Part shown: in pieces, positions 16,657-39,478 of the stretch
Numbering within the stretch: the stretch's first letter is position 1
Layout of the letters: every line of letters begins with the position of its first letter
Source: Saccostrea cucullata
Lineage: Eukaryota
Reading direction: 5' to 3'
Assembly (NCBI RefSeq): GCF_032062105.1
Contig: NW_026924382.1
Coordinates: 1 to 64,000, forward strand
Length of the DNA stretch: 64,000 nt
Translations under genes and position numbers: made by a program
Notes under the pieces: generated by a model
Told to the model about the DNA's origin: nothing
What the model saw: only the letters and a program-made list of their open reading frames with translations
The model's database searches: none

Positions 16657-19594
16657 TTACATATACTTAAGTGTACATTGTATTAAACCTTCTTTTATGT
16701 CAATGATATTGCACAGTTTTAGGTAATCCTTTAATGAAGTTGGGATCGGTAACTTGTTAACAGGAGGAAAAATAGTGGTATCTTTATTAATTATCCGTAA
16801 ATGCTTCCTAATTAATGAACGACAACTTTGTTTTAAGCTTGGTGGTTCTTCCATGCTAATGCCACTTTCTGCCATTTTTGTCTTGGTATAACTACAGTCG
16901 AGATCATCGCTTGTATACCGGTAACCGGCAGCAATAAATGTTTGAAGCATAATATTAAAACCTACACAGGTCCTTCTAGAATTGAAAAGATTATGATACG
17001 AAAACTGTTGCAGTACATCTTTGAGTTTATATTGATCTGGATCCATGCCGTGTTGAAGTAGTAGAATAGCCGTGTCACAGGTGAAACACGGTCCCGGGAT
17101 ATCTAGTGTTGTCGGTTGATTTGCCTCGTACACTTTTCCTCTTCTGAAAATTAAGATAACAGACGAGTGCATGTAGTAAGAATTATAATACAGAAATATC
17201 CTTATATTCACATTTTACATATTAGAGTCATCTTTATCGTCTCAAGCCACGGTCCGGAGTTCGCATATATATTTCACAAAAAGAGTCATAATCTTGAATA
17301 TTTAGGCCTCCCTATTGTGACGTCATTTTCAGTCAGTTGCAAGTTTTGTTTCCATCGCAATTGGAATCAACAATTGACGTCGACAGTATACAAGAAATAT
17401 TTCCTATACTGTGATTGGATATTGAAAGGTCGCGATAAAGTTCATCATCCGACTATGCTTTACTCGCATTGGTCAATATTTTAATGAGCTACGAAAAATT
17501 CTGTCTTCGTTCAACCACGGCAAGAATGGGAGAGGATAGTACATTTTGGCCGTGGTTTGCGACGATGAGTCATCTTTGAATGTTTGATATTTGATACAAA
17601 TATAAGTCCATTTTGTAGATTTATCTCAGCTTTGAATGTTCAATATTTTTAAAACAAAATCTTCAGATCTTAGCACAGGTTGATGTACATTATACCCTAA
17701 TCAATTAGTCTACCCACTGACTATGATATACCCAAAATAAGATTGTGAGTAATATTAATTGGGTATTGTACACAGGTTTATTCATTGTTTTCATCAGAGA
17801 GAAAATGGATCTTAATCCTACGTCAGATATCGTAATTAATCCATAAAAAGTGAATAAAATATTCATTAAAAATTTTTCCATACTAATCGACAATTCAACG
17901 CTACATAGCGTATAATGAACTTTATCTAAGTGAATCTATTCATATGATTTTTCTTACCCATAAAAGAAACAGTGTCCCCAGCAAGTTGTATTTAATTTTG
18001 CCCCAGCCATTAAATAAACTTCAAGTATCCTTGTCATAGGCGATGGTGGAGGAAGAGAGATCCCCGGTAAATTTATGGAATATCTCGGTTGAAAAATACT
18101 GTATTGTTCTATCTCGGGCTTTTGTAGATTAATGAACTGCTTATAGCCTTTGAATTTGTTCACATCAGCACCTAATAAGAAAGGTTTTATGTTTATTTAT
18201 ATACACATTTTTTTTTATTTTAGATATAAGTAAGCACAGTTCTCTCATGATCACGTATCGTGAAAGAGATTGATTATTTTTTATTTTTATAGACCTAATC
18301 AACTGTAAATATTGACATCCCAGACTTCATTTAAGGGGTGACTCATATTTAAATATATTTCTGTTTTCAAAAAAAAGGTTTTTTTTAATAAAATCGTTTT
18401 GCTAATCTTGTTCTTTAAAGATCTATGCCATGCACTAAAATAAAATAGTGAAAATATTAACTGCCGCCGCACTTCACACACAATGTTAAAAAACTTTAAT
18501 CTCAAACCTGAATCTAACAACAGCTTTACAATGTCTACATCCCTTGCTGCTATAGCATAGTACAATGGAGGCACCCCTTCCTCTCCCGACATATGTTTAT
18601 AACTCCTGAAAGGCAAATTAATGTCTGCACCCGCATCAATAAGCTTCCTAACAAGCTCTACATCTCGAAACCTGTATAGAAGAGGAAGAATGGGGCCGGA
18701 GTATTCATTCATACACTAAATACTATCAGTTTATTCTGAAATGTCACAATTTGAATTTTTAGGCACTCTAATCTTTCGGTTTTGTAGCAACAGTTAGGAA
18801 CACAAGCATGACATAAACATTGACATCATTTTCAAAAAGATATTCTAATATATTATATACAGACTTCACTACTACTTCACATGAAGAAGAAACACAATGC
18901 GATAAAAAACTTACATGCAGGCAATAATTATTGGTGTATATTCTAAGTATTCTTTATTTATGGAGACCTCTGTGTATCCATACATACCACGAACCTTCAC
19001 TTCCACTTCAAGTTTTATCGTATCATTTACAGAATTTGACTTCACTGTAAATTAATAACATTAATTATAATGAAAATAATGGAAAGAGATTTCAATACCA
19101 TATAAAATTGATTGCTGACCTTTCCTTTAGAGGAAAAAAAATTAATACTGTGTAGTGACTTTTTACACATTTTTTTTCTGATCACAATTTATTATCTATC
19201 TGACTTTGAAACCTTGACGAATAAATGCACAACGTTCATTGGTAAAGATTTGTGGCCAAAAACTATCCTTAAAGGCATATACAAATGTACATTTAAAAGA
19301 AATACGTATACTAGTGTAACGTATTTACAATTAATCACTGGGATCGTACCTGGTCATTTCCAGGGTTTGGGGTATTTAACATCAATTTAAATGATTGAAA
19401 ATAATTGGTATAATCTTAGTGGACTGCCGAAATATACAAATATGTCCTAACCTTATCTAGGTAAACAATAATCAAATGGTAAATCAAATGGTAAAACGAA
19501 GCTAATTTGATAATAAACCTGAGTCCCATGCATAACGGACAAGGTCCTCCTTTCTTTTGCAGATGACTTGCCCTGTTGATATATATTGCCCCAT
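16657..19594 (-). CDS. Ankyrin repeat and SOCS box protein (ASB-like), paralogue A, 356 aa
   Basis: Exons 19594-19519, 19044-18915, 18671-18508, 18171-17958, 17143-16657 total 1071 nt in frame. Ankyrin motifs TPIIIAC..LVRKLIDAGADIN and PPLYYAI..IVKLLLDSGADVN. SOCS box PPSLKQSCRSLIR..LPIPTSLKDYL. Confidence 0.9.
17236..17566. mobile_element. MITE in the last intron of ASB paralogue A
   Basis: Imperfect TIRs atcgtctcaagccacgg / ccgtggtttgcgacgat, flanked by direct repeat gagtcatcttt (17225-17235 and 17567-17577). Confidence 0.75.
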
Positions 19595-36700: not shown

Positions 36701-39478
36701 GTTTATGAACTAACTTTTTATCACAAAACCTGAAATTTAATAAAACTATATTAAAGATTGTTTAACGTCTTTTTGATAATTTTTCTCACTGATATTGAGT
36801 TGCCAACATTTTCCAATGGAGACCTGCAAAAGATCTTTATTCGGCACTGAAGACATTTGATTTTGAGCAGTGAAGGATTTTTGTGCTGCCAGATCACACT
36901 GCATGCAACATGGGCCTCTATTTATATGCTTTCCTCTGAAGGACAAGTAGGATTTAAACCCGCGACGTTAAGACTCGGACACCCTCTCACTCTGCCAACA
37001 TATATATAGAGCAAACACTCTACATATACCATGCAGGCAACAAAACTCACTTTATGTGTATGAACAATTATTGAATATTTCTTCAAATTATCATTTCAAA
37101 ATCGAAAACGACTACATCTAAATGTGGGTATGCCAAGAATCCGACAAAAACTAAAATCATAATTAAATTTTTCTCAGTGGAGAACAGAATTGTCTCAGAT
37201 AATACTGAATTTCTTTTAATTTAACGTACATGCAGGCAATGACGAGAGGCGTGTATTCTCTGTGTTCCTTCGTTTTGGGTTTCTCTGGATCTATATATCC
37301 AAACATACCACGAATTTCCACTTCAACCTCTAGTATTATGATATCATTCACAGAATTTGATTCAACTGTAAAAAAAAAATACATAACATAAAAAACTGTT
37401 TGGGTTATAAAATGACCATCTGTTATTTGTTACTTCGAAAACAAAAAGCAAAAACAAAACAAAAACAAGAGGTCCAGGGGCTCCATCGCTCACCTGAGCT
37501 CTGACTATGTAAAACTAAAAGCAAAATCAGTTCAGTTTCTGAAAGTTAAATATTAAAGTGGGTTCCATTGGGATAATGATTTGAACAAACTTGAATCTTC
37601 ACCACATGAGGATGCTTCCATATAACTATGACCAATAATGGCTTTGCTGTTCTTGAGGAGAAGATTTTTAAAGATTTTCCCTGGGCACTCCTATGTTACA
37701 CTTTGACACCCTATCATGGCTCCACCATACCCCTGGGGGTCATGATTTATATCAAACTTGAATCTACACTACCTGAGGGTGCTTCCACATGAGTTTCATC
37801 TTTACTGGCCCAGTGGTTCTTGAGAAGAAGATTTTTTAGTTTTTCCCTATGCATTCCTATGTTAAACTTTGACCCCCCCCCTCCTTCATGGTCCCACCAT
37901 ACCCCTGGGGATTATGATTTGAACAAACTTGAATCTACACTACCTAAGAATGCTTCCAAATAAGTTTCATCTTTCCTTGCTCAATGGTTCTGGAGAAGAA
38001 GATTTTAAAAGATTTTCCCTATATATTCCTATGTAAAATTTGATCAGCCATTGTGGCCCCGCCCTACCCCCGGGGATCATGATTTGAACAAAGTTGAATC
38101 TACATTACCTGAGGATGCTTCCAAATAAGTTTCATCTTTCCAGGATCAATGGTTCTGGAGAAGATTTTTAAAAGATTTTTCCTATATATTCCCATGTAAA
38201 ACTTTGATTAGCCATTGTGGCCCCGCCCTACCCCCGGAGGTCATAATTTGAACAAACTTTAATCTACACTACCTGAGGATGTTTCCACATGAGTTTCATC
38301 TTTCCTGGCCCAATGGTTCTGGAGAAGAAGATTTTTAAAAGATTTTCCCCATATATTCCTATGTAAAACTTTGATCAGTCATTGTGGCCCCGCCCTACCC
38401 CCGGGGATCATGATTTGAACAAAGTTGAATTTACATTACCTGAGGATGCTTCCAAATAAGTTTCATCTTTCCAGGATCAATGGTTCTGGAGAAGAAGATT
38501 TTTAAAAGATTTTTCCTATATATTCCCATGTAAAACTTTGATCAGCCATTGTGGCCCCGCCCTACCCCCGGAGGTCATAATTTGAACAAACTTTAATCTA
38601 CACTACCTGAGGATGTTTCCACATGAGTTTCATCTTTCCTGGCCCAATGGTTCTGGAGAAGATTTTTTAAAGATACCATTAATTTTTCATTTATTTGTAA
38701 TTATCTCCCCTTGGAAGAGGGTTTGGCCCTTTATTTGAATAAATTTGTATCCCCTTCACCCAAGGATGCTTTGTGGCAAGTTTGTTGAAATTGGCGAAGT
38801 GGTTCTCGAGAAGAAGATGAAAATGTGAAAAGTTTGCAAAACGACTAAGACGCCGACGACAGACAATGGACAAATGTTGATCAGAATAGCTCACTTGAGC
38901 CTTCAGATCAGGTGAGCTAACAAACAAACAGATTATGACAATTGCAAATCGTAATGGCTCATCTATCTTTCTTCGCTCTGAAATTTTGACACTAGTTACT
39001 AGTATTTGATTTAAATGTCAGTCCAAATTCCCAGGGCTGCTTTTGTCAGAGAAAATAAGAAAATAGAGAAATGTGATAGTAATTTTAATCAATTTAGTGA
39101 CGTGTATCATTTTGTCATTATGAAATTTATGCTTCTTACGTTCTTTTATAACCAAAGTGGGAAAACATTCAGAGTATTGTTTTTTTAAACTTTTTTTCAC
39201 AATATAATTAATATACATATACATAGATATAAATGTACTACATATAACTAATCCCGATTTATATCTATGAAGTAATTTGCAGACAAAAACTTAATTAAAA
39301 TTAAATTGTTGTTTTTAATTAATGAATTCTATTTTAAGTTCCCAATTCCTTCCCACTTCGAAACGCAAAATTCTATTATTAATAAACTTAAAGAAAACTT
39401 ACGGGACTTCCAGGCATGATGAAGCAGTTCATCCTTTTTTCTGCATACGATTGGTCCTGTTGACATTATCTGCCCCAT
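33799..39478 (-). CDS. ASB-like paralogue B', 351 aa (recent duplicate of B)
   Basis: Exons 39478-39403, 37365-37230, 36729-36566, 34940-34745, 34282-33799 total 1056 nt. Introns align with those of paralogue B. Confidence 0.9.
35970..36470 (-). mobile_element. Penelope-like element 3' fragment
   Basis: ORF 36156-36473 contains NFPCLCSNIPSSPARGVCISQLIRYAR..SRLKSSFRKFYGRYNDL, followed by the ggcacctgatcccacctct 3' UTR motif. Confidence 0.72.
37465..38920 (-). mobile_element. Complete HINE with ~165-bp satellite array in intron 1 of paralogue B'
   Basis: Reverse-complement architecture of 12342-13738. Empty site in paralogue B at about 25010 (caaaaacaaaacaaacagattatg). Confidence 0.88.

What the first reader, a model, noticed from the sequence alone, without database searches (positions are those of the whole stretch)
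16657..39478. Tandem family of putatively N-myristoylated ankyrin/SOCS-box E3 adaptors
Seen: three intact paralogues and the orphan exon all begin MGQ(Y/I)(I/M)ST, followed by a conserved Cys and a basic patch (C-K/R-x-K). Each has only about 2-3 ankyrin repeats, a Cys-containing middle segment (TTCWGxCxFYG..FTCDT) that I cannot assign, and a BC box plus LPxP Cul5 box. Known: MGxxxS is the N-myristoyltransferase consensus, and SOCS boxes recruit Elongin B/C-Cul5. Inference: a lineage-expanded, membrane-anchored ubiquitin-ligase substrate-receptor family, possibly immune or stress related. The B vs B' exon 2-3 differences look largely non-synonymous (QMC/EIR, APKM/KPKT, QEDKY/REYKH), which hints at diversifying selection on the substrate-binding face.
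Basis: partly seen in the sequence, partly recalled or inferred. Interest (0 to 1): 0.7.

Follow-up and report, generated by a model that had tools for sequence, protein, structure and literature searches.

The report
Bivalve lipid-anchored ankyrin–SOCS-box adaptor cluster
This oyster locus holds three intact tandem ankyrin/SOCS-box genes and a stray first exon from an oyster-and-mussel family that likely feeds proteins to a Cul5 ubiquitin ligase and is predicted to be held on membranes by an N-terminal myristate, but neither an immune role nor positive selection is shown.

Summary
There are three intact five-exon minus-strand genes (A 356, B 350, B' 351 aa), each with two canonical ankyrin repeats and a SOCS box, plus an orphan first exon. 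The B-type introns and one A intron are spliced in RNA data.

The family also occurs in Ostrea, Crassostrea, Magallana and Mytilus, with separate small expansions per genus. Met-Gly begins 24 of 35 members and lies at the aligned position in two more, so myristoylation is likely. Ser6 is missing in half of those 26, and the 'basic patch' is not conserved.

The unassigned middle segment is most likely degenerate ankyrin repeats: the full-length model aligns to human ASB9 over residues 3-334 (Z 12.4).

Diversifying selection is not supported. Exon 2+3 dN/dS is 4.5 but p=0.09, dN there only equals intron divergence, B alone has accelerated, and B/B' look partly homogenised. Upstream in-frame ATGs exist in RefSeq models of A and of one B isoform, but they look locus-specific. 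An immune role was not tested.

Verdict: a probably myristoylated, bivalve-restricted variant of the ASB adaptor type, with precedent in FBXO27 and FBXL7. Moderate interest.

The parts
16657..19594 (-). Gene A (RefSeq LOC134266296). Coding exons 19594-19519, 19044-18915, 18671-18508, 18171-17958, 17143-16657; 356 aa from MGQYIST. The RefSeq model adds 25 aa from an upstream in-frame ATG at -75.
   Evidence: exon 4-5 joined in an X1 contig
21343..25545 (-). Gene B (LOC134266298). Coding exons 25545-25470, 24904-24769, 24035-23872, 22487-22292, 21823-21343; 350 aa from MGQIMST.
   Evidence: all four introns seen as joints (the reads may come from B or B')
33799..39478 (-). Gene B' (LOC134266303). 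Coding exons 39478-39403, 37365-37230, 36729-36566, 34940-34745, 34282-33799; 351 aa from MGQIMST; intron 1 carries a 167-bp satellite.
27539..27614 (-). Orphan A-like first coding exon (MGQYISTGPVVCKTKEDLIRYAWDS), with intact acceptor at -2 and GT donor; same phase as B exon 1, so it could splice to B exon 2 (not shown)
   Evidence: 70/76 nt identical to A exon 1, against 16% divergence of flanking non-coding DNA, p=0.03
26145..26373 (-). Likely 5'-UTR exon of B, ending at a CAG|GTAGGAGT donor; has no ATG in frame with the MG start
   Evidence: X1 contig record 5 ends exactly at the donor; frame check; the joint itself was not among the rows shown
40640..40868 (-). Equivalent candidate 5'-UTR exon of B' (same donor, no in-frame ATG)
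   Evidence: by homology only
26631..26718 (-). Upstream coding exon of RefSeq B isoform X1 (adds 30 aa ahead of the MG). It is made of the A-like intron copy and takes its donor from a dispersed repeat; absent from B'.
26570..26652 (.). 83-bp fragment of a high-copy repeat at the junction of the tandem duplication
   Evidence: 328 matches in the genome
19110..41302 (.). Tandem segmental duplication: unit 19110-26571 versus 26653-41302 (B gene plus the 5' end of A, broken in A intron 1)

Best explanation
These are three intact, tandemly duplicated ankyrin-repeat/SOCS-box genes of an oyster-and-mussel family that likely work as substrate receptors of an Elongin B/C-Cul5-Rbx2 ubiquitin ligase, and the B-type proteins are predicted to be N-myristoylated on Gly2 and so held on cytoplasmic membranes. 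Shown: gene structure, splicing of the B-type introns and of one A intron, two canonical ankyrin repeats, a SOCS box, and conservation of Met-Gly across oysters and mussels. Predicted: the middle segment continues the solenoid as about three degenerate repeats with long inserted loops, giving an ASB9-like architecture. Inferred: the ankyrin surface and loops bind a substrate, the BC and Cul5 boxes recruit the ligase, and myristate (perhaps helped by hydrophobic residues 4-5) brings it to membrane substrates, as for FBXO27. The cluster likely arose by a segmental duplication that broke inside A intron 1 and left the orphan exon. B/B' were probably partly homogenised afterwards, and B has evolved faster, most simply under relaxed constraint.
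For: ORFs and splice phases; RNA joints. Pfam Ank and SOCS_box above cut-off in 5 of 5 family proteins scanned; BC-box and Cul-box patterns in 16 of 16 examined. Model pLDDT 73.7. The top seven Foldseek rows are ASB8/ASB9 chains (E 2e-5 to 3e-4). VIA-align: ASB9 Z 12.4, 231 aligned, residues 3-334; ASB7 Z 11.3, 238 aligned. The profile-profile test finds two more ankyrin half-repeats at 166-182 and 214-229 (E 0.007 and 0.001). MG at residue 1 in 24 of 35 members and at the aligned internal site in 2 more. An AG lies 2 nt before the ATG in 5 of 5 copies in this genome. N-terminal extensions in different species' models are unrelated to each other. B and B' have an in-frame stop at -6 if unspliced and no in-frame ATG in the candidate UTR exon. 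Precedent for myristoylated cullin-ligase receptors: FBXO27 (PMC12285598, passages) and FBXL7 (PMC4550359, passages).
Against: No biochemical test of myristoylation or of EloB/C binding. Only 13 of the 26 MG-bearing members fit a PROSITE-type pattern typed from recall; the 13 Crassostrea, Magallana and related unnamed rows have Q or K at position 6. Six full-length members lack Gly2. One review's wording of the NMT consensus lists only small residues at position 4 after Met removal, where these proteins have I, M or W (PMC4692089, passage). RefSeq starts A 25 codons upstream, and X1 contigs cover A's upstream stretch and intron 1 at near-exon depth, so A may often lack a free Gly2. Structural matches have rmsd 4.5-5 A and Z within the range seen for helical repeats. 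The middle segment alone has no Pfam hit in 10 of 10 members, and the extra half-repeats have low HHalign probability (19% and 6%).
Confidence: 0.6

Rival explanations
1. Ordinary cytosolic ASB-type adaptors: the conserved MGQ is simply the conserved start, and the proteins are not, or only partly, myristoylated.
For: Ser/Thr6 is absent in 13 of 26 MG-bearing members and Gly2 is lost in 6 full-length members. There is no conserved polybasic second signal. Upstream in-frame ATGs occur in RefSeq models of A, B-X1, O. edulis and M. galloprovincialis X1.
Against: Gly2 is retained between oysters and mussels at about 40% overall identity, in a tail predicted disordered at residues 1-6. Ser6 is present in all 13 MG-bearing Saccostrea, Ostrea and Mytilus rows.
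Confidence: 0.22
2. One reading: immune or stress receptors whose substrate-binding face is under diversifying selection.
For: B/B' exon 2+3: 16 non-synonymous to 1 synonymous, dN/dS 4.45, bootstrap interval of dN-dS 0.004-0.100. 12 of 34 changes fall in the hairpin (31-63) and loop (89-104), 49 residues (post hoc p=0.0008). Copies cluster by genus, which points to repeated turnover.
Against: Fisher p=0.088 for exon 2+3 and 0.21 overall. Exon 2+3 pN of 6.8% equals intron divergence of 7.2%, and whole-gene pN of 4.2% is below it (p=0.0002). The ratio is driven by low dS (6 of 221 sites, p=0.003 against introns). An unbiased window scan gives p=0.15. The same loops are among the least conserved parts family-wide. 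Changes are asymmetric: 22 B-derived against 8 B'-derived (p=0.016), some at otherwise invariant sites. No immune evidence was obtained.
Confidence: 0.13
3. B and B' are two haplotypes of one gene placed in tandem by the assembly.
For: B/B' dS of 2.8% is near the 2% difference between A and another individual's contig (11 of 493). X1 shows long unbranched B-type contigs, as if one sequence were expressed. Only one B-type gene was found for S. echinata.
Against: Other parts of the same duplicated unit differ by 11-21%, too much for alleles. The junction carries a repeat fragment. This would not affect the family-level conclusions.
Confidence: 0.05

Closest known systems
ASB family (ASB1-18; structures of ASB9, ASB7, ASB8 with Elongin B/C)
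   Same: N-terminal ankyrin solenoid, capping helices and a C-terminal SOCS box; best structural matches; architecture as described in PMC3779351 (passages)
   Different: Only two canonical repeats; the others are degenerate with long inserted loops and an N-terminal beta hairpin. Conserved MGQ start. 16-21% identity to the solved ASBs. No vertebrate ASB was retrieved as a full-length or middle-segment homologue.
FBXO27 and FBXL7 (N-myristoylated SCF/CRL1 substrate receptors)
   Same: Cullin-RING substrate receptor brought to membranes by myristate (FBXO27: PMC12285598 passages; FBXL7 shown myristoylated: PMC4550359 passages)
   Different: F-box/Skp1/Cul1 rather than SOCS box/EloBC/Cul5; lectin or LRR substrate domain; not homologous. 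Myristoylation here is only predicted.
Rab40 (SOCS-box GTPase) and ASB11
   Same: Cul5 receptors acting at membranes: Rab40 at the Golgi, ASB11 on ribophorin 1 (PMC4812663 passages)
   Different: Different anchors (C-terminal prenylation for Rab40 and an N-terminal hydrophobic segment for ASB11, both recalled) and, for Rab40, a different substrate domain
ASB6 / ANKRD9 / molluscan SOCS-box clusters (ESM Atlas)
   Same: Nearest clusters by language-model features, score 0.97
   Different: A feature match only, with no alignment; orthology not shown

Membership tests
ASB (ankyrin repeat and SOCS box) architecture | N-terminal ankyrin repeats | tested here: met
   Pfam PF00023, 2 stretches, above cut-off in A, B and B'; the model aligns to ankyrin solenoids up to about residue 290
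ASB (ankyrin repeat and SOCS box) architecture | C-terminal SOCS box with BC box and Cul5 box | tested here: met
   PF07525 E 2e-10 to 1e-8; SLKQxCRSxIR and LPIP (consensus recalled)
ASB (ankyrin repeat and SOCS box) architecture | Assembly with Elongin B/C, Cul5 and Rbx2, and ubiquitination of a substrate | not tested
   No complex prediction was run; substrate ubiquitination needs bench work
A named vertebrate ASB orthogroup (e.g. 'ASB2-like' as one source labels it) | Full-length homology or orthology with a conventional ASB | tested here: inconclusive
   The middle-segment profile retrieved 22 clusters: 15 named, all oyster or mussel, and 7 unnamed. Full-length search dropped from E<=1e-38 (family) to >=3e-18 (generic ankyrin). 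These searches are word-limited, and no tree with vertebrate ASBs was built.
N-myristoylated proteins (NMT substrates) | Gly immediately after the initiator Met | tested here: inconclusive
   Met for B (X2) and B' models and 24 of 35 family rows. RefSeq A and B-X1 start upstream. The true transcript 5' ends were not resolved.
N-myristoylated proteins (NMT substrates) | Ser/Thr at position 6, no Pro at 7, permissive residue 3 | tested here: met
   Met for A, B, B' and the orphan exon; met in 13 of 26 MG-bearing family rows (pattern recalled)
N-myristoylated proteins (NMT substrates) | Second membrane signal (polybasic patch or palmitoylated Cys near the N-terminus) | tested here: not met
   Net charge +1 after the Cys here and -2 to +2 across 16 members. 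The Cys is at 11-15, in a predicted strand. Palmitoylation itself could not be tested.
N-myristoylated proteins (NMT substrates) | Covalent myristate on Gly2 | not testable with these tools
   needs labelling or mass spectrometry
Gene family under diversifying selection | dN significantly above the neutral rate | tested here: not met
   Pairwise B/B': p=0.088 in the best region; dN not above intron divergence. Low power; site models were not run.

The most novel reading that the evidence does not exclude
A bivalve-restricted, myristate-anchored CRL5 receptor family that turns over by tandem duplication in every genus and uses long variable loops inserted into a degenerate ankyrin solenoid to recognise pathogen-derived or damaged-membrane substrates (a Cul5 counterpart of FBXO27). 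Anchoring would be switched by alternative 5' exons, including the orphan exon splicing onto gene B.
Probability: 0.12. Interest if true: 0.65.

Novelty: new variant of a known kind. Interest (0 to 1): 0.35.

Why it matters
If the myristoylation is confirmed, this would be an ASB-type Cul5 receptor anchored by N-terminal lipid. My searches did not find one described, though the F-box equivalents are known. It would give oyster and mussel biologists a small, testable family of membrane-directed ubiquitin ligase adaptors that are currently labelled 'uncharacterized' or mis-named. It does not introduce a new mechanism.

Tried and rejected
Folding the middle segment alone gave a low-confidence model (pLDDT 51.7) and no match above Z 3.0. 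This is uninformative, neither for nor against a new fold.

The profile search of 1.84 billion representatives was swamped by long ankyrin proteins. Among the 150 listed, the short family-like hits were proteins already found or fragments. The PDB sequence search returned only generic ankyrin matches to profile positions of about 47-132 in the top 60.

The Cys-plus-basic-patch anchor was rejected. A separate Cys-rich metal-binding middle domain was considered (C70, C187, C213, H241, C250 are at least 90% conserved). It was not preferred, given the solenoid alignment, but no coordinates were available to test it.

The fourth copy in this assembly (G000:C21144) has stops in exon 2 and a frameshift in exon 4 and was not counted as intact. 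Among the 15 displayed differences between gene A and other individuals, 6 are synonymous and 9 are not (only the best-supported rows were shown).

Literature: no paper held ASB + oyster + expansion. The bivalve listing (20 of 52 shown, listing only) showed nothing on this family by title or abstract start. My recollection that SPSB proteins start with MGQ found no support in print. Earlier findings of the scan: none.

No RNA data were obtained over the orphan exon or B', so their expression remains open. A complex prediction with Elongin B/C was not run: it is a textbook pair and no oyster Elongin sequence was in hand.
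Full report
Gene structure. The interval holds three five-exon genes on the minus strand with GT-AG introns in identical phases: A (19594-16657, 356 aa from the MG), B (25545-21343, 350 aa) and B' (39478-33799, 351 aa). An isolated A-like first exon lies at 27614-27539. The proteins match RefSeq models that the database labels Saccostrea cucullata LOC134266296, LOC134266298 and LOC134266303. 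Four runs were laid on 16000-27270 at 90% likeness. All four B-type introns appear as joints, and an X1 contig joins A exons 4 and 5. 114 further joints were not shown, exon depth in the raw-read runs was only a few-fold, and B' reads could have been laid on B. Two searches of the own genome each found four copies. The fourth, on G000:C21144, has stops and a frameshift.

Domains. Pfam finds two ankyrin repeats and a SOCS box above cut-off in 5 of 5 family proteins scanned. BC-box and Cul-box patterns are present in 16 of 16 members examined, with LPIP in A, B and B'. An AlphaFold2 model of B from a 29-sequence alignment (pLDDT 73.7, pTM 0.76) has helix pairs through the middle segment. Its best Foldseek matches are ASB8 and ASB9. 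VIA-align places ASB9 first (Z 12.4, rmsd 5.0, 231 aligned, residues 3-334) and ASB7 second (Z 11.3, 238 aligned), within a field of ankyrin proteins at Z 9-11. Gankyrin aligns 198 residues over 13-298, which must include much of the middle. A profile-profile test finds weak ankyrin half-repeats at 166-182 and 214-229, and a third, similar motif at about 255-266 is visible in the alignment. The middle is therefore most likely degenerate ankyrin repeats with long inserted loops. This is a prediction: alone, the segment has no Pfam hit and folds poorly.

Family. Full-length homologues occur in Saccostrea, Ostrea, Crassostrea, Magallana and Mytilus (37-44% identity to B for Mytilus). A profile of the middle segment retrieved 22 clusters, 15 named (all oysters or mussels) and 7 unnamed; absence elsewhere is weakly tested. 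In a tree of 35 selected rows (near-duplicates and fragments left out), Mytilus (13), Magallana (6) and C. virginica (4) each form one group at full support, and Saccostrea (6) does so at 88/91. This points to separate, modest expansions in each genus.

N-terminus. MG opens 24 of 35 rows and sits at the aligned internal position in 2 more. Nine lack it: three are truncated models and six have other N-termini. A recalled PROSITE-type pattern fits 13 of the 26; the Crassostrea/Magallana group has Q or K at position 6. All five copies in this genome have an AG two bases before the ATG, which suggests a 5'-UTR intron. For B, an X1 contig (26145-26373) ends exactly at a CAG|GTAGGAGT donor. That exon, and its B' equivalent, have no in-frame ATG, and an unspliced leader would meet an in-frame stop at -6. 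RefSeq isoform X1 of B adds 30 aa from an exon at 26718-26631, whose donor lies in a dispersed repeat at the duplication junction, so it is locus-specific. For A, the RefSeq model reads through the acceptor from ATGs at -75/-72, and X1 contigs cover the upstream stretch and intron 1 at about 45-60 depth against 57 for exons. A may therefore often be made without a free Gly2, though contigs cannot show starts or levels. The Cys is conserved but lies in a predicted strand, and the following six residues have net charge -2 to +2, so the proposed second anchor is not supported.

History and selection. Self-comparison shows a tandem duplication of a unit running from upstream of B to the middle of A intron 1 (19110-26571 versus 26653-41302), which explains the orphan exon. 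The A-side non-coding parts differ by 11-21%, while the B-side introns and upstream flanks differ by 2.5-8%. This suggests later homogenisation of B/B' or two separate events. The orphan exon differs from A at 6 of 76 sites, fewer than its flanks predict (p=0.03), and has the same phase as B exon 1; whether it is used is unknown. B versus B': 35 non-synonymous and 6 synonymous differences, dN/dS 1.57 (p=0.21); exons 2+3 16 to 1, dN/dS 4.45 (p=0.088). The high ratio comes from a low dS. Changes are enriched in two loops post hoc, but not in an unbiased scan (p=0.15), and 22 of 30 polarised changes are on the B branch. Relaxed constraint on one duplicate explains this as well as positive selection does.

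Mechanism. Shown: intact genes with ankyrin and SOCS-box motifs, splicing of B-type introns and one A intron, and a conserved MG. Inferred from the ASB family (PMC3779351 and PMC4812663, passages): binding to Elongin B/C and Cul5, and substrate ubiquitination. Inferred from conservation: myristoylation and membrane targeting, about 0.7 for B/B' and lower for A. Precedent exists in FBXO27 (PMC12285598, passages) and FBXL7 (PMC4550359, passages). The NMT consensus was read in passages of PMC4692089. Substrates and any immune role are unknown. Searches for a description of this family, or of a myristoylated ASB, found none in the held library; subscription journals and supplements were not seen.

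Verdict. A real feature: a probably myristoylated, bivalve-restricted variant of the ASB adaptor type. Interest 0.35.

Noticed in passing
window 29544-30188 (-): 214-aa SGNH/GDSL-like ORF (weak PF13472, E 5e-4) between palindromic TGCAGC-rich repeats at 30536-30871 and 31563-31800; probably part of a transposon inserted in the duplicated unit
   Followed up: partly
window 27728-27873 and 27982-28127: Two 95% identical tRNA-like elements, probably tRNA-derived SINEs, inserted just upstream of the orphan exon
   Followed up: no
window 26570-26652: Fragment of a high-copy repeat with short tandem arrays elsewhere in the genome; it marks the duplication junction and supplies a splice donor to RefSeq B isoform X1
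   Followed up: yes
G000:C21144:6636-13057 (+) (L005/L006): Fourth family copy, orthologous to S. echinata LOC133180747, with a partly duplicated exon 2 carrying stops and a frameshift in exon 4; RefSeq lists a truncated 140-aa product
   Followed up: partly
window 41574-47450: Several diverged tandem copies of an AT-rich non-coding unit of about 1.8 kb (70-85% alike) upstream of B'
   Followed up: no
window about 48100-52000 (-): Exons resembling a serine carboxypeptidase S28/PRSS16-like gene (motifs seen; label recalled; the one exon scanned had no Pfam hit)
   Followed up: no
window 56231-63960 (+): Two tandem trypsin-like serine protease genes (Pfam Trypsin hits in three exons)
   Followed up: partly
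window 5536-5826 (+): MAM-domain exon (PF00629, E 3.5e-5)
   Followed up: no
window 12597-13621 and 37570-38662; 6042-6416; 9526-10246: Related 158-167-bp satellite arrays, one inside B' intron 1
   Followed up: no
P0039/P0313 cluster and Mytilus LOC143075194 clade: Family paralogues that have full N-termini but lack Gly2; natural controls for the anchoring hypothesis
   Followed up: partly
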